A DNA stretch of 64,000 bases from Eubacteriales bacterium (GCA_045543495.1 JAZQMO010000019.1:17056-81055), one strand, 5' to 3'. Positions 30,664-39,093 are shown, counted from the first letter of the stretch. Notes: a model not told the origin generated them from the sequence alone. Numbers and translations: made by a program.

Positions 30664-30790
30664 AAAAGAACGCTTGGGGCATCTTCCGAAAGGAAGGTGC
30701 CCCAAGCTTTGTCGGTGGCAGCGGAAAATGCAGTTGACAGAAAATGCGGGAGCCTTTATAATGGAAGAAACCAAGAAAGGAGTTTTCATT

Positions 30791-31345
30791 ATGACAGATC
30801 AACAAATGGTGGAACAAAGAGAAAATGTATTGGCAGGAACCGTCGGTGCCATCCTGTTTTCCTTGGCAGGGGGTATTTTGTGGTTCTTATTGTATCAGGT
30901 AGGCTTTATGGCAGGACTCAGCGGCCTTGTGGGCGTGATCTGCGCCATTAAGGGCTATTCGATCTTTGCCAAAAAGGAAAGTGTAAAGGGCATTGTCATT
31001 GCCATCCTCTGTGCCGTTGCCGTAATGGTTTTGGCTTGGTACCTGTGCCTTTCTTTGGATGTATATAAGGCGCATCAGGATTGGTATGCCAACGGTGAGA
31101 TCGATTACACCATCGGCTTTGCCGAGGCTGTGAGCGGGGCTTATATGTACCTGACCGAGGCGGATATTGCTCTGGCTTATTTTAAGGATCTTGGCATCGG
31201 CCTTCTGCTTTGCGTGGTGGGTGCTTACCGCTTTGTGATCGATGCGGTTCGCCGTGTGAAGCAGGAGAAAAAACTTGCTGAGGAAAATCCCGCAGCAGAG
31301 ACTCCCGTGAATGAGATTCCCCCGCAGGACGATCCCCGAGTATGA
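30791..31345 (+). CDS. Hypothetical membrane protein
   Basis: ORF 30653..31345. ATG 30791 follows an AAGAAAGGAG SD. Four predicted TM segments. C-terminal K/E/P tail. Confidence 0.55.
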   Translation: MTDQQMVEQRENVLAGTVGAILFSLAGGILWFLLYQVGFMAGLSGLVGVICAIKGYSIFAKKESVKGIVIAILCAVAVMVLAWYLCLSLDVYKAHQDWYANGEIDYTIGFAEAVSGAYMYLTEADIALAYFKDLGIGLLLCVVGAYRFVIDAVRRVKQEKKLAEENPAAETPVNEIPPQDDPRV

Positions 31346-32931: not shown

Positions 32932-33291
32932 TCAGATCGGCCGAATCCAAACGATCTTTCCGTTTTTTCTTGCAAGATCGATCATCGATTTTGTCCCTCG
33001 ACTTTTTCCGTCCCAAAAGGAAATCAAAACATCACATTCCTCGGCAAGGAGCTTGTTTCGGATGGGGCCTGCTGCTTTTCCGTATTTCTCCCATTGGGCG
33101 GGATATACCCTTATTTCAAAACCAAAATCTGCGGCGAATTGTTCTCCCAAGCGGTCTGCCCCTCGACATCCGCCGGATAAAAATACGGGATTCTCTTTCA
33201 GGTTGGCTTTTTTCAGACATTCCTTAATGAATTGTTTTGCTTCCGAATAATTCTGATAGTCTCTGCTTCCCGCTATTACAATTTTGATCAT
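32932..33291 (-). CDS. SLOG-family / DUF2493-like protein
   Basis: ORF 32932..33300. ATG 33291 follows a GAGGTG SD. MIKIVIAGSRDY...FLSGGCRGADRLGE...GPIRN...GKSRGT, typical of DUF2493/SLOG Rossmann-like proteins. Confidence 0.6.
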   Translation of the reverse strand: MIKIVIAGSRDYQNYSEAKQFIKECLKKANLKENPVFLSGGCRGADRLGEQFAADFGFEIRVYPAQWEKYGKAAGPIRNKLLAEECDVLISFWDGKSRGTKSMIDLARKNGKIVWIRPI

Positions 33292-33383
33292 AGAAATCAC
33301 CTCAAGACTATTTTACTACCAAAGGATAGTAAAATCAATACTATTGTTTGATAGTACATATACTGAATACTGAGGTGAGGTAT

Positions 33384-33608
33384 TTGTATTATCCGAGATT
33401 GAAGGATCTTCGTGAGGATCGGGATCTGGTTCAAAAAGAAATCGCGGCCCTCCTTGGCATAGATCAAAGAGTGTATAGCAATTATGAAACCGGGAAGAGG
33501 GAAATTCCCACCCGTTTTGTCATTCGGTTGGCGAGGTTTTACAATACCTCCACCGATTACATCTTGGGATTAACCAACGATTCCGTTTCAAAGAAGAAAA
33601 AAGCTTGA
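33384..33608 (+). CDS. XRE-family helix-turn-helix transcriptional regulator
   Basis: ORF 33348..33608. Likely TTG 33384 after a GAGGTGAGG SD. RLKDLREDRDLVQKEIAALLGIDQRVYSNYETGKREIP is a classical HTH_3 block. Confidence 0.7.
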   Translation: MYYPRLKDLREDRDLVQKEIAALLGIDQRVYSNYETGKREIPTRFVIRLARFYNTSTDYILGLTNDSVSKKKKA

Positions 33609-33703: not shown

Positions 33704-35524
33704 TTATTTATCGTTCCAGAGGGTGATTTCTGCAATGCGAAGGGTGGCGTCTGCCGTTTCTTCTCTTGCCCATTCCTTCCCGATGGTGGAGAGGATCTCA
33801 AGCTTTAAGTAGCGGGTCTTCACCTTGGCAAAGCGCACCGTTTCCTCCCATCCGAAGATGCGGAAGCGCCCCGAGGCAACGGGGGTAAAGGTCTCGCCGT
33901 CAGGGCTTACCGAAATGCGGTACTTGGCGGGGAAGAGCTTTAACAGGGCCTCCTCTTTGTTCTTTTCGGTATCACGGACACGGTCGATCCAGAAGGGGAA
34001 GTGGCTCAGAGCGCAAACTTCTTTTTCCTCCCCCAGATCAAAGATCAGATCGGCGGTTCCGTGCTGGGACTGCCAGGGCTCCAGAGGGGTATCGTTGATC
34101 AGCTCGGGAATTTCCTTGTCGCTGATGCGGTCCCATACACAAACCCCTTCCTTGGAAATGGGGAAAAGAGCCTTTTCCTTTTTCTTCTTTTGGAATTCTT
34201 TTCCCGTCCAAACGGGGTAGGACCAGGTCTTTCTGCCCTTTTCATCCAGCAGGCAAAGGTAGAAATAGTGAGAGTCGGGAGCGTTCAGGGTGAAATCAAA
34301 GCAGTCGCCCGTATCGTTCAGCTCCAAGATCTCACAGCCCTTGTCGGTCACGACCTTGCATTTTTTAATGTGGGTATCCATTTCACCCAAGCGGAAATAG
34401 CTCAATTCCACGTGGAAGGAGTATTCTCCCTCGTTATCCAGCGTTGTGGGAGCCACCTTCCCGTTGACGGTATAAAACAGCTTCACATTGCCTGTGGAGC
34501 TGGCGTACATACGGTTGGACAAAATGGCATCGTGGAAGGCTTCCTTGCTCTTTTCGGGTGCCAAAATGACGGTCTTGCCGGGGAATTTTTCGTAGCCCCA
34601 ACGTCCGGGCCCGTGGCCGTCGCTGGAGCAGGTGGGAGATACGTGAAAGCCCTCGTCCAGCGCCATGGAATAGACATATTCATTGAGGGTATTGCCGGAA
34701 CGGGAGGTGCCGTCTCCCATTTCCACAAAGCGGAAGAGCTTTTGAAAGCGAGGGGAGTTATTTTCTCTGTGCCTGAAATCCCACACGCCCTTGACGGAAA
34801 AGCCAATGGCCTGAGGATGGGGATAGCCGCAGAAGGCAAAGGGGCTGTGCTTTAACATTTTGAAAAACTTGTCCCAGGAACGGGCGGTAAAGGCCGTGTC
34901 GGCATTGAAGGTCAAAACCTCGCCGCCGTGCATATGCTCCAGCCCGTAGCGGTCTGTTTCAATGATGGTCACCTGTCCCTCGGAGCCGGGAAAGAAGGTG
35001 ATGTGAGGAGCAAATTCCTCGGCGTGGGAATAGCCACGGTAAAAATCCTGTGCCGTAAGACAGCTGGAATGGTCGGAAACCACGGCAAAATCAAGCCTTC
35101 CGTCCTCCTTCATTCGCTTCATATAGTGATTTCTGTGGTGAAAGGAAACATCTCGCTCGGCAAATTCCGCTCTCTTGTGCTTGGTGTAGGTGTGATCGTG
35201 CATATCCCCCACGAAATAGCAAAGCTCGGCAGAGGGCTCGGTGTGGCGCATTTGGCGAACCTCCACGGTGCAGGTGTAGGTCTTTTTGCCGTATTTGGCA
35301 AACACCTTGGCGCTTCCTGCACTGAGAAAGGTCAAAAGAACGCCGTTTGTAAATTCTCCGCCGTAGTGGTAATCCTTGGCAAAGGTGGTGATCTGAACCA
35401 CCTCTTTGTTGTCGGTGCTCCAGCGAATGGGATCCTGATTGAATTCACTCTCTCCCCCAAGAAGCATCAAGGGGAGTACATTTCCCGCATACGTGGAAAT
35501 ATGATCCTGTGATAAGTAGCGCAT
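33704..35524 (-). CDS. PHP-like metal-dependent phosphoesterase domain fused to a C-terminal discoidin (F5/8 type C)-like domain
   Basis: ORF 33704..35716; ATG 35524 (MRYLSQD). His-rich blocks GDMHDHT, VVSDHS, SSDGHG. C-terminal ~140 aa (ADLIFDLGEEKEV...RYLKLEILS) look like a galactose-binding/discoidin fold. No signal peptide. Confidence 0.45.
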   Translation of the reverse strand: MRYLSQDHISTYAGNVLPLMLLGGESEFNQDPIRWSTDNKEVVQITTFAKDYHYGGEFTNGVLLTFLSAGSAKVFAKYGKKTYTCTVEVRQMRHTEPSAELCYFVGDMHDHTYTKHKRAEFAERDVSFHHRNHYMKRMKEDGRLDFAVVSDHSSCLTAQDFYRGYSHAEEFAPHITFFPGSEGQVTIIETDRYGLEHMHGGEVLTFNADTAFTARSWDKFFKMLKHSPFAFCGYPHPQAIGFSVKGVWDFRHRENNSPRFQKLFRFVEMGDGTSRSGNTLNEYVYSMALDEGFHVSPTCSSDGHGPGRWGYEKFPGKTVILAPEKSKEAFHDAILSNRMYASSTGNVKLFYTVNGKVAPTTLDNEGEYSFHVELSYFRLGEMDTHIKKCKVVTDKGCEILELNDTGDCFDFTLNAPDSHYFYLCLLDEKGRKTWSYPVWTGKEFQKKKKEKALFPISKEGVCVWDRISDKEIPELINDTPLEPWQSQHGTADLIFDLGEEKEVCALSHFPFWIDRVRDTEKNKEEALLKLFPAKYRISVSPDGETFTPVASGRFRIFGWEETVRFAKVKTRYLKLEILSTIGKEWAREETADATLRIAEITLWNDK

Positions 35525-35890
35525 GGTATCTCTTCCTTTTGTCAGATTATTTTGTCCCTTTTCGGGAAAGGAATCAGTATTTTCCTTTGCTTTATAAATA
35601 TACCAAATTGTCTCGGTACTGTCAAGAAAAGAGGGAAAGAAAGTATCAATTGAGGCAATGGGAGAGGCGGTTGTAGAAGGAGGGCGTTTTTTTGATGAAG
35701 CAACGGGCAAGAGCAATTTTCCTTTTTAGGCGTATTTGTCATCCCTTATTAAAAGGGAAGGCGTTTTCAAATAAAGCATAAAGAATGTTTTGTTCCACCC
35801 ACCGTCTCTTGCGGTCTTCTTGCTTTTGTGCTACAATGGTGAAGCAAGTGATTATAAGGAAACTGCGTTTTCAGAAAAGAGGAGATTTGT

Positions 35891-37180
35891 TTGAAAGTGA
35901 AAGAGATTACACAGGAAAAGAAACGAATTGATTACAAGTGGGTGATTGTCGTTCTGTCTTTTTTGATGGTTATGATATGCCTTGGCTTTTGCAGTTCGCC
36001 AAAAAGCCTTTTTATCGCTCCCGTAACACAAGCCCTCGGGATTGACAGAGGACTTTTTTCCATCAACGATAGCGTGCGCTTTATTTCAACTGCGGTCATC
36101 AACATTTTCTTTGGTGCACTGATCCAGCGTTTCGGTACAAAAAAACTCATTGGTGCGGGCGTTCTTTGTTTGATCCTTTCTCAGCTCATTTACTCCTTTG
36201 CAACCAATGTTTTTGTTTTCTGCATCGGCGGTGTTTTTTTGGGGCTGGGACTTTCCTGGACTACCACCACAATGGTTGGCGCAATTATAAACAAGTGGTG
36301 TCGAGAAAGCAAGGGAACCATAATGGGAGCCGTTCTTGCGGCCAATGGCATCGGAGGTGCCCTTGCGATTCAGGTGGTAACACCGGTAATAGAAAGCGGA
36401 GTCTTTGGCTACCGCAATGCATACAGAATGATCGCCATAGCCCTTTTCGTTCTTTTTGTGCTTCTTATGATCTTCTTTAAAAACAGCCCCTCAAAGGAGG
36501 ATACGGCACCGATCCCTGTGGAAAAAAAGAAGTCTCGCAGCCACGAGTGGTCGGGCATTGAATATAGCAAGGCAGTGAAAATGCCCTATTTTTACTGTGC
36601 CCTTGTTTGCATCTTCTTAACGGGTCTTGCTTTGCAGTCCGTCAACGGTGTTGCCGCTGCCCATATGAGAGATTCCGGGCTTGATCCAACCTATGTCAGC
36701 CTTGTGCTCAGTGCCCATTCTTTGGTTCTGACCGGCTGCAAATTTTTCCTGGGCGTCTCATACGACAAATTCGGTCTCAGAGCAACGGTGAATATGTGTA
36801 CCGTTGCTGCGGTGATCGTTATGATCAGCCTTACCTTGATTACCAATTCCTTTGCAGGAAAGGTCTTCGCTATGATCTATGGCGTGCTTTCCTCTCTTGC
36901 GCTTCCCTTGGAAACCATTATGCTTCCCATCTATGCAGGCGATCTTTTTGGTCAGAAGTCATACAATAAAATTCTCGGTATCTTCGTTTCTGTAAATACT
37001 GCGGGTTATGCGGTGGGCGCACCCATGATCAATTTCATTTTTGACTTGTGCAAAAGCTATAACCCCGGTTTTATCTTCTGCGCTGTCCTTATGGTGGGAG
37101 TTATCATTGCAATGCAGTTTTTGATCAGCGCTGCCCATCGCTATCAAAAGGAATCCGAAAAAAGCCGACAAACGCTGTGA
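35891..37180 (+). CDS. MFS transporter
   Basis: 429 aa, about 12 TM segments in 6+6 organisation with a central basic loop (KKKSRSHEW). Confidence 0.7.
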   Translation: MKVKEITQEKKRIDYKWVIVVLSFLMVMICLGFCSSPKSLFIAPVTQALGIDRGLFSINDSVRFISTAVINIFFGALIQRFGTKKLIGAGVLCLILSQLIYSFATNVFVFCIGGVFLGLGLSWTTTTMVGAIINKWCRESKGTIMGAVLAANGIGGALAIQVVTPVIESGVFGYRNAYRMIAIALFVLFVLLMIFFKNSPSKEDTAPIPVEKKKSRSHEWSGIEYSKAVKMPYFYCALVCIFLTGLALQSVNGVAAAHMRDSGLDPTYVSLVLSAHSLVLTGCKFFLGVSYDKFGLRATVNMCTVAAVIVMISLTLITNSFAGKVFAMIYGVLSSLALPLETIMLPIYAGDLFGQKSYNKILGIFVSVNTAGYAVGAPMINFIFDLCKSYNPGFIFCAVLMVGVIIAMQFLISAAHRYQKESEKSRQTL

Positions 37181-37214
37181 CAAGAAAAGGGGTTCCGAAA
37201 AAACACTAAAAACA

Positions 37215-37300
37215 AAAAAGAAGGCAGTCAGTTGACTACCTTCTTTTTATTTGTAAATCAATCTTACTTGTTCAGAGCCACAGAAACGGGGTGGCTACGG
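37215..37300. repeat. Copy A of duplicated gene-3'-end plus terminator (relic)
   Basis: 34 bp AAAAAGAAGGCAGTCAGTTGACTACCTTCTTTTT (37215-37248) is identical to 38042-38075. A flanking relic reading frame on the minus strand ends ...VSVALNK-stop, against ...ISMALNK-stop for the GGGtGRT gene. Confidence 0.85.
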
Positions 37301-37537
37301 GAGCTGCCTTTTTAATTTTTCTAGACAATTGTGGCAAAGAAATAGATTTGGCTTTAATTTTAAAAGATTTTCAGGGCTTTGGCAAATAGCGCAGTGGGTG
37401 CTTTCTTTTGTCAGTGTGATTTTCTTTTCTTTCGAATCATAGTCGATGAAAAGAAAGTCGCCTTCGTTTAAGCCCATATCTTCTCGTATTTCTTTCGGGA
37501 TCCCGATCCTTCCCAAGGTATTCAGTCTCTTTTTCAT
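37295..37537 (-). CDS. AbrB/MazE/SpoVT-type DNA-binding domain fused to a CxxC...CxxC zinc ribbon
   Basis: ORF 37295..37600. ATG 37537 follows an AAGAGGAG SD. LGRIGIPKEIREDMGL is a SpoVT_AbrB swapped-hairpin motif. C-terminal CAICQ...CHNC. Confidence 0.6.
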   Translation of the reverse strand: MKKRLNTLGRIGIPKEIREDMGLNEGDFLFIDYDSKEKKITLTKESTHCAICQSPENLLKLKPNLFLCHNCLEKLKRQLP

Positions 37538-37666
37538 TGTTGCTCCTCTTTTTTTGCTTTGGTCATAGCATAGCACAAGACTTCTCAAAAGCCAACTCAA
37601 AAGAGTTAAACTTTTTAACTCAAAAAAGTTACCATTAGAAAAAAGATGATTTTTGCGGAGGAATGT

Positions 37667-37909
37667 ATGAGGGTTGGAGAGGCGGTTCGTTTGAGAATTA
37701 TGGAACTATGCGAGGAAAGAGGGCTTACCACCAATGCCCTTGCCAATCTTTGCGGTGTAACGCAATCCACCCTTGCGAATATTGTCGGCGGCAGAAATCA
37801 AAGCACCACGGTGTCTACGATCAAAAAGCTTTGTGACGGCTTGGAAATTGAAATCGGGGACTTTTTTGACTCCTCGCTCTTTTCCGATCTGGAGCAAGAG
37901 ATCCGTTGA
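37667..37909 (+). CDS. XRE-family helix-turn-helix protein
   Basis: ORF 37646..37909. ATG 37667 follows a GGAGGA SD. RLRIMELCEERGLTTNALANLCGVTQSTLANIVGGRN is an HTH_3-like block. Confidence 0.65.
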   Translation: MRVGEAVRLRIMELCEERGLTTNALANLCGVTQSTLANIVGGRNQSTTVSTIKKLCDGLEIEIGDFFDSSLFSDLEQEIR

Positions 37910-38041
37910 CTTGGAATCAAAAAAATGCTCCTTGCCTATTGTGGAAGCAGCAAGGCTTTCATTATAAAACCCTGAAGGTTTTTGGGAAGGGGATGGGAAA
38001 CACTTTTTGCCGAAAAAGGGTTTCCCGAAAAACAAAAAAAT

Positions 38042-38129
38042 AAAAAGAAGGCAGTCAGTTGACTACCTTCTTTTTCTATATAAGCTTGATCTTACTTATT
38101 GAGAGCCATGGAGATTTCTACGGCTACGG
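38042..38129. repeat. Copy B of duplicated 3'-end plus terminator (functional end of the GGGtGRT gene)
   Basis: Identical 34-bp hairpin core at 38042-38075. It folds best on the minus strand (G-U pair) and is followed there by a T-run. Overlaps the last codons of CDS 38092..39093. Confidence 0.85.
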
Positions 38130-39093
38130 CAACGGTCATACCAACCATGGGGTTGTTACCTGCGCCGATGAGGCCCATCATTTCCACGTGAGCGGGAACG
38201 GAGGAGGAGCCTGCGAACTGAGCATCGCCGTGCATACGGCCCATGGTATCGGTCATACCGTAGGAAGCGGGGCCTGCAGCCATATTATCGGGATGCAGGG
38301 TTCTGCCCGTACCGCCGCCGGAAGCAACGGAGAAGTACTTCTTGCCGTTTTCAATGGCCCACTTCTTGTAGGTACCTGCAACGGGGTGCTGGAAGCGGGT
38401 GGGGTTGGTGGAGTTACCGGTGATGGAAACGTCAACAGACTCGTGCTGCATAATGGCAACGCCTTCCAGAACATCGTTGGAGCCGTAGCAACGAACCTTG
38501 GCTCTTTCGCCGTCGGAATAAGCCTTGGACTTGATGATGTTCAGCTTGTTCTCGGTGAAATCAAACTCGGTCTGCACATAGGTGAAGCCGTTGATTCTTG
38601 AGATGATGTGAGCGGCATCCTTACCCAGACCGTTGAGGATGATCTGGAGAGGCTCTTTACGAACCTTATTTGCGGTCTTTGCAATACCGATTGCGCCCTC
38701 TGCAGCGGCGAAGGACTCGTGACCTGCCAGGAAGCAGAAGCACTTGGTCTCTTCTCTGAGCAGCATAGCAGCCAGATTACCGTGGCCCAGACCGACGTTT
38801 CTGGTCTCGGCAACGGAGCCGTGAATACAGAATGCCTGCAGGCCGATACCGATCGCCTCGGCAGCCTCAGCGGCGCTCTTAACGCCCTTCTTTACTGCAA
38901 TGGCAGCACCCAGGGTGTAAGCCCAAGCGGCGTTTTCAAATGCGATGGGCTGAACGCCCTTGACCAGAGCGTCTACATCCACGCCCAGATCCAGGCAGAT
39001 CTTCTGTGCTTCCTCGAGAGAAGCAATGCCGTATTCCTTGAGGCACTCGTTGATCTTACCAATTCTTCTTTCGTATCCTTCAAATTTAACCAT
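38092..39093 (-). CDS. GGGtGRT-family protein (function unknown)
   Basis: 333 aa. Contains the family-defining string SGGGTGRTLHPDN. Confidence 0.8.
   Translation of the reverse strand: MVKFEGYERRIGKINECLKEYGIASLEEAQKICLDLGVDVDALVKGVQPIAFENAAWAYTLGAAIAVKKGVKSAAEAAEAIGIGLQAFCIHGSVAETRNVGLGHGNLAAMLLREETKCFCFLAGHESFAAAEGAIGIAKTANKVRKEPLQIILNGLGKDAAHIISRINGFTYVQTEFDFTENKLNIIKSKAYSDGERAKVRCYGSNDVLEGVAIMQHESVDVSITGNSTNPTRFQHPVAGTYKKWAIENGKKYFSVASGGGTGRTLHPDNMAAGPASYGMTDTMGRMHGDAQFAGSSSVPAHVEMMGLIGAGNNPMVGMTVAVAVEISMALNK

What the first reader, a model, noticed from the sequence alone, without database searches (positions are those of the whole stretch)
37215..38129. Duplicated gene-3'-end plus terminator brackets an 0.8-kb AbrB-Zn-ribbon / XRE cassette (integration scar)
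A 34-bp sequence, AAAAAGAAGGCAGTCAGTTGACTACCTTCTTTTT, occurs identically at 37215-37248 and 38042-38075. Similarity continues for another ~50 bp on one side. In copy B this flank encodes the true C-terminus of the GGGtGRT protein (...VAVEISMALNK-stop). In copy A it leaves a relic frame (...RSHPVSVALNK-stop). Elements that integrate into the 3' end of a gene and bring a replacement end leave this signature. Here only two small divergent regulator-like genes remain between the repeats, and no integrase is present. The last codons of the AbrB-like ORF run into copy A.
Basis: seen in the sequence. Interest (0 to 1): 0.55.

Follow-up and report, generated by a model that had tools for sequence, protein, structure and literature searches.

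The report
Integrase-less gene cassette at integration hotspot
An 0.8-kb two-regulator gene cassette sits between two copies of the tail end of a conserved metabolic gene, and related genomes carry other cassettes and integrase genes at this same spot, so it is an ordinary but well-preserved leftover of site-specific DNA integration.

Summary
The 34-mer occurs exactly twice in 64 kb, with none expected by chance. It sits inside an imperfect direct repeat of about 115 bp (37185-37300 and 38012-38130). The repeat comprises the last codons of the GGGtGRT gene, the stop codon, a strong terminator and about 30 bp beyond it.

The repeat brackets an XRE gene and an AbrB/Zn-ribbon gene. They are transcribed divergently from a conserved operator. 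The cassette has 41% GC against 53-55% in the flanks.

Related genomes support the integration reading and widen it:
- Extra direct copies of the gene's 3' end lie downstream of GGGtGRT in 8 of 81 related loci. They bracket unrelated cargo: gtrAB-like genes, a barnase/barstar pair and an XRE-YAcAr pair.
- The same XRE-AbrB cassette, with the same ends, is second in the array in one relative.
- It is absent from three other close relatives.
- Tyrosine integrases lie within about 0.9 kb downstream of this gene's stop codon in four other lineages.

Best reading: an integrase-less, CIME-like cassette in a tandem-accretion hotspot. Its genes are still under purifying selection (dN/dS 0.04-0.1). Mobility, the crossover site and the responsible integrase are inferred, not shown. 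It is a new member of a known kind, at a target gene I found no report of as an integration site.

The parts
38092..39093 (-). GGGtGRT-family gene, the target gene whose 3' end is duplicated
   Evidence: PF14057, E 1e-191. It lies in a conserved PduL/PTAC - NifU-like - GGGtGRT operon, also present in L001, L002 and L101.
38012..38130 (-). Direct-repeat copy B (gene-proximal): the true last ~13 codons, stop codon, 15-nt spacer, terminator T1 and ~30 nt beyond
   Evidence: Alignment with copy A; translation AVAVEISMALNK*.
38042..38075 (-). Terminator T1, copy B (the 34-mer)
   Evidence: 15-bp stem followed by a T-run; dG about -23 kcal/mol, z -5.3. Exact 34-mer.
37667..37909 (+). XRE-family HTH regulator (80 aa), first cassette gene
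   Evidence: PF13443, PF13560 and PF01381. 96% aa identity to L081 and 85% to L084; dN/dS 0.04-0.08.
37538..37666 (.). Divergent promoter/operator region. Inverted repeat GAGTTAA-N5-TTAACTC at 37593-37611, a third AACTC half-site at 37584-37588, and the complement of a TTGACT-like -35 box for the AbrB gene
   Evidence: The block TTTTTGAGTTAAAAAG(A/T)TTAACTCTTTTG is invariant apart from one position in 5 genomes whose proteins differ by 20-35%, and the adjoining -35 segment is nearly so. Repeat family D5.
37295..37537 (-). SpoVT/AbrB-domain protein with a C-terminal CxxC...CxxC zinc ribbon (80 aa), second cassette gene
   Evidence: PF04014, 29 bits, above the cut-off. DUF4428-like Zn ribbon, below the cut-off. 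Full-length match to phrog_4681. PDB profile hits to SpoVT/AbrB N-domains and to uS14-type Zn ribbons. dN/dS about 0.09.
37185..37300 (-). Direct-repeat copy A (gene-distal): decayed relic of the last ~12 codons (SRSHPVSVALNK*), stop codon, spacer, terminator T1 and ~30 nt beyond. It overlaps the AbrB stop codon.
   Evidence: The spacer type matches the AbrB-cassette repeats of L081.
37215..37248 (-). Terminator T1, copy A (the 34-mer). It is positioned to terminate the AbrB gene on the minus strand and the convergent MFS gene on the plus strand.
   Evidence: The MFS stop codon is at 37178-37180.
32932..33608 (.). Second small cassette of the same island: YAcAr/SLOG gene (32932-33300, minus) and XRE gene (33387-33608, plus). 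40-41% GC.
   Evidence: 71% nt identity to the XRE-YAcAr cassette that lies between gene-end repeats in L002 and L081. PF10686. GC profile.
33704..33733 (-). Possible decayed gene-end relic that forms the last codons and stop of the F5/8-type-C gene, just gene-proximal to the XRE-YAcAr cassette (weak)
   Evidence: 19/30 ungapped identity, in register with the stop codon. It is one of only two non-self 30-mers in the 128,000 positions of both strands that reach this score.

Best explanation
The 827-bp unit is an integrase-less integrative cassette, CIME-like. It sits in a site-specific integration hotspot at the 3' end of the GGGtGRT gene.

Inferred history: a circular element carried an att site homologous to the gene's last codons, stop codon and terminator. 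It recombined with the chromosomal gene end. This left one copy attached to the gene (copy B, keeping the reading frame and a terminator) and one relic on the far side (copy A). Repeated events of this kind, catalysed by tyrosine integrases of elements that share the target, piled up cassettes downstream of the gene (tandem accretion). The integration genes were lost or were never on the small units.

What remains here is a self-contained regulatory module. An XRE repressor-type protein and an AbrB/Zn-ribbon DNA-binding protein are transcribed divergently from a conserved palindromic operator. Selection keeps the module, most likely as an immunity or regulatory switch of mobile-element origin.

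Shown: the repeat, the cassette content, its presence/absence and its different array position in relatives, the recurrence of gene-end relics, integrases at the same site in other lineages, and purifying selection.

Inferred: the recombination mechanism, the integrase that acted, current mobility, and the function of the regulator pair.
For: 1. The repeat is real and non-random.

2. A profile of GGGtGRT gene ends finds extra copies downstream of the gene in L001, L002 (two copies), L008 (two), L011, L015 (two), L049, L068 and L081. All are in direct orientation.

3. The repeats bracket unrelated cargo:
- L001: GT2 + GtrA + a membrane protein, 3.6 kb.
- L049: a barnase-like RNase plus barstar.
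- L002: a DUF6056 membrane protein.
- L002 and L081: XRE-YAcAr.

4. L081 reads gene | XRE-YAcAr | repeat+T1 | XRE-AbrB | short relic+T1. The AbrB cassette is 80% identical to the window over 964 nt. It has the same junction, with the AbrB stop codon about 12 nt before the relic, and its flanking repeats are 67/67 identical. Contig L084 starts at TAAGAT plus a terminator and ends just past the AbrB stop codon. That is where an assembly would break at flanking repeats.

5. The cassette is absent at this position in L001, L002 and L101. These relatives have GGGtGRT 95-96% aa identity (L001, L002) or NifU-like 97% aa identity (L101).

6. PF00589 integrases with Arm/SAM-like N-domains lie within about 0.9 kb downstream of the gene's stop codon in L068, L042, L023 and L025. 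The L023 and L042 integrases are 42% identical.

7. The cassette GC is about 41%, against 53-55% in the flanks.

8. dN/dS is 0.04-0.1 and the operator is conserved.

9. The AbrB/Zn-ribbon protein matches a phage family over its full length and has homologues in the early regions of temperate phages.

10. The pattern matches published tandem accretion and CIMEs (PMC5704250) and the tandem ssrA islands of Dehalococcoides, which are bounded by repeats of the ssrA 3' end and some of which lack integration modules (PMC3146451).
Against: - There is no integrase in the cassette or in the 64-kb window. The integrases found at this site are in lineages with only 77-81% GGGtGRT identity.
- No complete element with both att copies was recovered. 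No second copy lay within the flank sequence held, which was less than 6 kb downstream of the gene.
- The repeat extents relative to the stop codon vary widely: -114..+51, -84..-5, -14..+80 and +17..+59. No single common core is demonstrated.
- In the window, the putative shared block TCTCCATGGCNCTGAA has 4 mismatches in copy A, so this copy may no longer be recombination-proficient.
- In L101 the duplication is of the terminator alone.
- The perfect 34 bp could be kept by selection on terminator function.
- No circular form or empty-site read was available.
Confidence: 0.62

Rival explanations
1. Campbell-type homologous recombination without a dedicated integrase. A circularised foreign fragment already carried a GGGtGRT 3' end plus terminator, for example DNA from a related species. 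It recombined once by RecA-dependent crossover with the resident gene end. This duplicated the homologous segment and inserted the cargo.
For: - Repeat lengths and boundaries differ from case to case, from 43 to about 170 bp, with no fixed core.
- The repeats in L001 and L081 are long and perfect (118 and 67 nt), long enough for homologous recombination.
- No integrase accompanies most cassettes.
Against: - Integrases lie right at the same gene end in four lineages.
- The AbrB-side junction is the same in the window, L081 and L084. This argues for a defined element end rather than random fragment ends.
- A recurring source of circular non-replicating fragments would be needed.
Confidence: 0.15
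2. An actively trans-mobilised cassette system, integron-like in logic. Small self-regulated cassettes are captured and reshuffled at the gene-end site by an integrase encoded elsewhere in the genome or on a visiting element. New cassettes enter next to the gene.
For: - Cassette order differs between relatives. The window has AbrB first and YAcAr fourth or so. L081 has YAcAr first and AbrB second. L002 has a membrane gene and then YAcAr.
- In the window, relics look more decayed with distance from the gene.
- The cassettes have defined ends.
- The XRE-YAcAr module also occurs at an unrelated locus.
Against: - No resident integrase was found next to the site in the window, L001, L002, L081 or L101.
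- The cassettes carry their own promoters and are heterogeneous in size.
- The distal relics in the window are statistically weak.
- In L081 the distal repeat pair is the better preserved one.
Confidence: 0.13
3. A local tandem duplication of the gene end plus terminator by slippage or unequal crossing-over. An unrelated insertion between the copies followed, and the 34-mer has been kept identical only because both copies are working terminators.
For: - Gene-less tandem copies about 100-150 bp apart exist in L008, L015, L031 and L068.
- Both T1 copies are strong terminators placed after genes.
- The flanks of the 34-mer have diverged to about 70-80% identity.
Against: - It does not explain why the same cassette with the same junctions appears in a different array position in L081.
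- It does not explain why many unrelated cargos lie between such repeats.
- It does not explain the integrases at the site.
- It does not explain the low GC of the cassette.
Confidence: 0.07
4. A chance or generic terminator family: the two 34-mers are members of a common terminator type with no relation to the cassette.
For: Many terminators in this clade share the form A-run, GAAC/GAAG ... GTTC/CTTC, T-run.
Against: - Exactly two matches with up to 3 mismatches in 64 kb, and none in shuffles.
- With up to 5 mismatches, the only matches in about 1 Mb are the two window sites, the L081 AbrB-cassette repeat and one unrelated hairpin in a viral contig.
- Similarity extends beyond the hairpin into the gene end on one side and into the flank on the other.
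Confidence: 0.02

Closest known systems
CIMEs (cis-mobilizable elements) and tandem accretion at the 3' end of fda in Streptococcus thermophilus (ICESt1/ICESt3 family), as reviewed in PMC5704250
   Same: - An element flanked by attL/attR direct repeats that include the end of a protein-coding target gene.
- No integration or transfer genes.
- It lies in tandem with other units at the same site.
- Integrase-bearing elements share the target.
   Different: - The target gene is GGGtGRT, in uncultured gut/rumen Clostridia.
- The unit is very small (0.83 kb, two regulators).
- The repeats are long (about 115 bp), imperfect, and include the terminator.
- No cognate integrase-bearing element was found in the same genome.
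- Mobilisation is untested.
Tandem ssrA genomic islands of Dehalococcoides (PMC3146451)
   Same: - Several islands in a row downstream of one conserved gene.
- Each is bounded by a direct repeat of that gene's 3' end.
- The content is strain-specific and low in GC.
- Some islands lack an integration module and were proposed to be CIMEs.
   Different: - There the target is the tmRNA gene, the repeat is 20 bp, and the integrase is a CcrB-like serine recombinase.
- Here the target encodes a protein, the repeats are 43-170 bp, and the integrases seen at the site are tyrosine recombinases.
Integron gene cassettes
   Same: An array of small, integrase-less units separated by repeated recombination-site-like sequences. 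The order varies between relatives.
   Different: - No intI/attI platform.
- The separators are copies of a host gene's end plus a terminator, not attC sites.
- The cassettes have their own promoters and several genes.
Prophage remnants that keep att-proximal morons or immunity genes, such as gtrABC serotype-conversion clusters next to attP/int in enterobacterial phages (from my own knowledge, not checked here)
   Same: - The L001 cassette is gtrA/gtrB-like and is bracketed by gene-end repeats.
- The window cassette is an XRE-type divergent switch like a phage immunity region.
- The AbrB/Zn-ribbon protein has phage homologues.
   Different: - No other phage genes are present.
- The cassette ends are conserved between genomes, which is not expected from random deletional decay.

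Membership tests
CIME / decayed integrative element | [quoted passage not shown] | tested here: met
   37185-37300 versus 38012-38130. Copy B is the true gene end and copy A a relic.
CIME / decayed integrative element | Lacks integrase/excisionase and transfer genes | tested here: met
   Only XRE and AbrB/Zn-ribbon genes lie between the repeats. No recombinase ORF was found in the window by phmmer/jackhmmer.
CIME / decayed integrative element | The same att site is used by integrase-encoding elements (shared specificity) | tested here: inconclusive
   PF00589 integrases lie within about 0.9 kb downstream of the GGGtGRT stop codon in L068, L042, L023 and L025. These are more distant lineages, and their second att copy was not recovered.
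CIME / decayed integrative element | Excision or mobilisation when a cognate integrase is supplied | not testable with these tools
   Needs PCR or long reads for the circular junction and the empty site, or a recombination assay.
Integron cassette | Adjacent intI integrase with attI and the Pc promoter | tested here: not met
   No recombinase in the window. The upstream neighbour is the GGGtGRT operon.
Integron cassette | attC site at the cassette end; a mostly promoterless single ORF | tested here: not met
   The separator is a gene-end copy plus an intrinsic terminator. The cassette has two genes and its own conserved promoter/operator.
Type II toxin-antitoxin pair (MazE/AbrB-type antitoxin) | Antitoxin co-transcribed with an adjacent toxin gene | tested here: not met
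   The only partner is an XRE HTH protein, and it is transcribed divergently. There is no toxin domain. The 'antitoxin' label of phrog_4681 is an annotation only.
Insertion sequence / MITE | Terminal inverted repeats, a short target-site duplication, and a transposase or derivation from one | tested here: not met
   The only inverted repeats found are the terminator hairpins themselves. The duplication is about 115 bp and is a copy of the gene end.
SpoVT/AbrB-family DNA-binding protein (for the 80-aa ORF) | N-terminal swapped-hairpin (looped-hinge-helix) domain | tested here: met
   PF04014 at 29.1 bits, cut-off 24.7. PDB profile hits to SpoVT and AbrB N-domains, E 7e-4 to 6e-3. The 3-D model was too poor to add anything (pLDDT 62).

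The most novel reading that the evidence does not exclude
The 3' end of the GGGtGRT gene in this clade of gut/rumen Clostridia is the platform of a cassette-capture system that is integron-like in logic. Small, self-regulated, integrase-less modules (XRE-AbrB/Zn-ribbon, XRE-YAcAr/SLOG, toxin-immunity pairs, gtr genes) are inserted next to the gene and reshuffled by a trans-acting tyrosine integrase. Each insertion regenerates the gene's end and terminator, and older units are pushed outward and decay.
Probability: 0.13. Interest if true: 0.7.

Novelty: new member of a known kind. Interest (0 to 1): 0.38.

Why it matters
It identifies the 3' end of the GGGtGRT gene as a recurrent integration site and variable-gene hotspot in uncultured gut and rumen Clostridia. 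The gene is highly conserved and of unknown function. The 13 papers in the held library that mention GGGtGRT are proteomic or expression studies by title, not studies of integration sites.

Practical consequences:
- The repeats break metagenome assemblies. Contigs L002, L081, L083 and L084 all end at them.
- The repeats mark where strain-specific accessory genes should be looked for, such as surface glycosylation genes, toxin-immunity pairs and small regulator modules.
- The locus provides a compact XRE / AbrB-Zn-ribbon switch with a clearly conserved operator that could be tested directly.

Conceptually it is another example of tandem accretion and CIME formation rather than a new mechanism.

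Tried and rejected
- Exact-protein look-ups of the window's GGGtGRT and AbrB proteins found nothing on record.
- Metagenome and IMG/VR scans with the AbrB/Zn-ribbon alignment gave only distant hits of 34-53% identity and no informative context.
- The cassette DNA has no plasmid match.
- I looked for phage records carrying a GGGtGRT 3' fragment as a free attP. This gave seven 'UNVERIFIED Bacteriophage sp.' fecal contigs. The four I fetched carry a GGGtGRT gene or gene end but none of the integrase families seen at this site. The two whose ORFs I read look like ordinary bacterial chromosome (uvrB, ribosomal protein genes). I dropped this line.
- I looked for the second att copy of the integrase-bearing elements in L042, L023 and L025. 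None lay within the flank sequence held.
- The AlphaFold model of the AbrB/Zn-ribbon protein, built from 5 sequences, had pLDDT 62, so I ran no fold search.
- Rfam and tRNA scans of the region gave only sub-threshold hits caused by the hairpin, and no tRNA.
- A degenerate T1 pattern scan of viral contigs gave three unrelated palindromes.
- The nhmmer profile is too insensitive for relics of about 35 nt. It misses even copy A, so it cannot confirm the weak distal relics in the window.
- I considered T1 as the crossover core. I did not adopt this, because repeats in other loci share the gene end but have different terminators.

Full report
**Observation**

The 34-mer AAAAAGAAGGCAGTCAGTTGACTACCTTCTTTTT is present at 37215-37248 and 38042-38075. 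It occurs nowhere else in the window, even with three mismatches allowed, and none of 100 dinucleotide-preserving shuffles gave a match.

Similarity is not limited to one side. The two copies align over about 37185-37300 and 38012-38130. BLAST gives 97 nt at 83.5%, and MAFFT extends the alignment to a shared GGCTACGG block.

Read in the direction of the minus-strand GGGtGRT gene, each copy holds four parts: the last roughly 12 codons, a TAA stop codon, a 15-nt spacer, the 34-nt hairpin (here called T1) and about 30 nt beyond it.
- Copy B encodes the real C-terminus AVAVEISMALNK*.
- Copy A reads SRSHPVSVALNK*.

T1 is a strong intrinsic terminator in both copies, with a 15-bp stem, dG about -22 to -23 kcal/mol and z about -5.

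**What lies between the copies**

There are only two genes.
- An 80-aa XRE-type HTH protein at 37667-37909 on the plus strand (PF13443, PF13560, PF01381).
- An 80-aa protein at 37295-37537 on the minus strand. It has an N-terminal SpoVT/AbrB domain (PF04014, above the cut-off) and a C-terminal CxxC...CxxC zinc ribbon. It matches phrog_4681 over its full length, and a PDB profile search hits SpoVT/AbrB N-domains and uS14-type zinc ribbons.

The two genes diverge from a 129-bp intergenic region. A block there containing the inverted repeat GAGTTAA-N5-TTAACTC varies at only one position in five genomes whose proteins differ by 20-35%. The adjoining -35-like TTGACT segment is nearly as conserved.

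Between the window, L081 and L084, dN/dS is 0.04-0.08 for the XRE gene and about 0.09 for the AbrB gene. The module is therefore functional and not decaying.

GC is about 41% in the cassette, against 53-55% in the GGGtGRT operon and beyond.

No recombinase ORF was found in the cassette or anywhere in the 64-kb window.

**Context from related genomes**

A scan of one genome per species returned 80 loci encoding close GGGtGRT relatives. A nucleotide profile of their gene ends finds additional copies downstream of the gene in L001, L002 (two), L008 (two), L011, L015 (two), L049, L068 and L081. Every copy is in the same orientation as the gene.

The DNA between these copies is unrelated from case to case:
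- L001: a GT2 glycosyltransferase, GtrA and a large membrane protein, 3.6 kb.
- L002: a DUF6056 membrane protein, then an XRE-YAcAr pair.
- L049: a barnase-like RNase with two barstar genes.
- L011: an XRE-fusion protein and a glycosidase-like gene.

L001 and L002 are the closest relatives, at 96% and 95% GGGtGRT identity. Neither has the XRE-AbrB cassette.

L101 is another close relative (NifU-like neighbour 97% identical). It also lacks the cassette next to the gene. It carries a 34-nt terminator after GGGtGRT that is repeated, 33/34 identical, 1170 bp downstream around a different two-gene unit. Further out it has an XRE homologue (71% identity) with the same operator but no AbrB gene.

**The same cassette elsewhere**

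The AbrB/Zn-ribbon protein is rare. Only five 90%-identity clusters were found among 5.8 billion sequences.

In L081 the arrangement is: GGGtGRT end | XRE-YAcAr | gene-end copy + T1 | XRE-AbrB | short relic + T1 | contig end.
- The whole unit is 80% identical to the window over 964 nt.
- The AbrB stop codon sits at the same distance from the relic.
- The two flanking repeats are 67/67 identical up to the contig end.
- They carry L081-specific T1 variants.

Contigs L084 and L083 contain just the cassette. L084 begins at TAAGAT plus a terminator and ends 14 nt after the AbrB stop codon. An assembler would break there if the unit were flanked by repeats.

So the cassette has defined ends in several genomes. 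It occupies the first position in the window and the second in L081.

The XRE-YAcAr cassette that precedes it in L081 is also in the window, about 4 kb further out at 32932-33608. It is 71% identical at the nucleotide level and has 40-41% GC. Cassette order therefore differs between relatives.

The same XRE-YAcAr pair is also found at an unrelated chromosomal site in another lineage.

**Integrases at the site**

ORFs lying within about 0.9 kb downstream of the GGGtGRT stop codon in L068, L042, L023 and L025 are tyrosine recombinases. They have PF00589 with SAM-like and, in L023, Arm-binding N-domains. The L023 and L042 proteins are 42% identical over their full length.

In L068 a 60-nt relic of the gene end lies between the gene and the integrase.

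These lineages are more distant, at 77-81% GGGtGRT identity. Their distal att copy lay outside the flank sequence held. They show that the gene end is a target of integrase-bearing elements, but they do not identify the enzyme that moved this cassette.

**Interpretation**

The pattern has three features: direct repeats of a conserved gene's 3' end, several units in tandem with strain-specific low-GC cargo, and integrases on some units but not others. This is what is described as site-specific integration followed by decay and tandem accretion. Integrase-less units that keep attL/attR are called CIMEs (PMC5704250). The tandem ssrA islands of Dehalococcoides, some without integration modules, are a close parallel (PMC3146451).

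I therefore read the window feature as a CIME-like cassette in a GGGtGRT-3'-end hotspot, with confidence about 0.6.

The regulator pair most likely works as an autoregulated switch or immunity module of mobile-element origin. The AbrB/Zn-ribbon family occurs in the early regions of temperate Paenibacillus and Clostridium perfringens phages. This function is an inference.

**Open points**

- The repeats do not share one obvious core. Their extents relative to the stop codon range from -114..+51 to +17..+59. The block common to most is TCTCCATGGCNCTGAA just before the stop codon, and copy A of the window has four mismatches there.
- The 34-bp perfect identity within roughly 70-80% identical flanks can be explained in two ways: selection on a bidirectional terminator that serves the AbrB and MFS genes, or gene conversion. 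It need not mark the crossover.
- Copy A carries the spacer type seen with the AbrB cassette in L081, whereas copy B has a different spacer. The simple rule 'proximal copy imported, distal copy native' therefore does not fit cleanly, and the repeats are mosaic.
- A RecA-dependent Campbell-type insertion of circular fragments cannot be excluded. Neither can an actively trans-mobilised cassette system.

**Weak additional relics in the window**

The last 30 nt of the F5/8-type-C gene (33704-33733) match the GGGtGRT end at 19/30, in register with the stop codon. This lies exactly where L081 and L002 have a gene-end copy before the XRE-YAcAr cassette. Only one other non-self 30-mer in the 128,000 positions of both strands reaches that score. 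It lies at 35742-35771, between the F5/8-type-C and MFS genes.

This suggests that the region from 38091 down to about 32840 is a series of four or five old cassettes. The profile search cannot confirm such short relics.

**Verdict**

This is a new example of a known kind of structure, at a target gene I found no report of as an integration site. It has moderate practical interest and low conceptual surprise, unless the cassettes prove to be actively shuffled.

Noticed in passing
window 32932-33608: A second low-GC (40-41%) two-gene module: an XRE regulator divergent from a YAcAr/SLOG (DUF2493) protein. It is homologous to the cassette that lies between GGGtGRT-end repeats in L002 and L081. 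The same pair also sits between a PBP gene and an HMGL-like gene in another lineage (L098-L100).
   Followed up: partly
window 33704-33733 and 35742-35771: These are the only two non-self 30-mers in the window with at least 19/30 identity to the GGGtGRT gene end. One forms the last codons and stop of the F5/8-type-C gene. The other lies just upstream of that gene. They may be decayed relics marking older cassettes (MFS, F5/8-type-C). Statistically weak.
   Followed up: partly
window 37915-37975 (minus strand): A second hairpin followed by a run of seven T lies downstream of T1 in the GGGtGRT transcription direction, just before the 3' end of the XRE gene. It is not significant against shuffles (z -1.5). 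It might insulate the XRE gene from read-through.
   Followed up: no
L101 5350-5395 and 6520-6565: In a close relative, the terminator after GGGtGRT is duplicated (33/34 identical) 1170 bp downstream. It brackets a 242-aa ORF with no Pfam match plus an XRE gene, with no gene-end relic. This is the same theme as the window, with the terminator alone repeated.
   Followed up: partly
L101 10973-11290: An XRE homologue (71% aa identity) keeps the GAGTTCAAAAGTTTAACTC operator but has no AbrB/Zn-ribbon partner. It sits next to sigma-70 region-4 and DUF4367 genes. It may be a derivative of the cassette.
   Followed up: no
L008 7097-7293, L015 1338-1745, L031 7041-7216, L068 7097-7156: Gene-less tandem copies of the GGGtGRT end plus a hairpin, spaced only about 70-340 bp apart. 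They may be fully decayed mini-units or slippage products. Their origin was not examined.
   Followed up: no
L049 6626-7886: A cassette between gene-end repeats encodes a barnase-family RNase with a Mu-F-like N-terminal region, followed by two barstar immunity genes. This is a toxin-immunity cargo at the same hotspot.
   Followed up: partly
window 30764-31345 versus L001 11828-12385: The membrane-protein gene that flanks the variable region (67% aa identity) has the opposite orientation relative to GGGtGRT in the two genomes. This implies an inversion or rearrangement at the far edge of the island.
   Followed up: no
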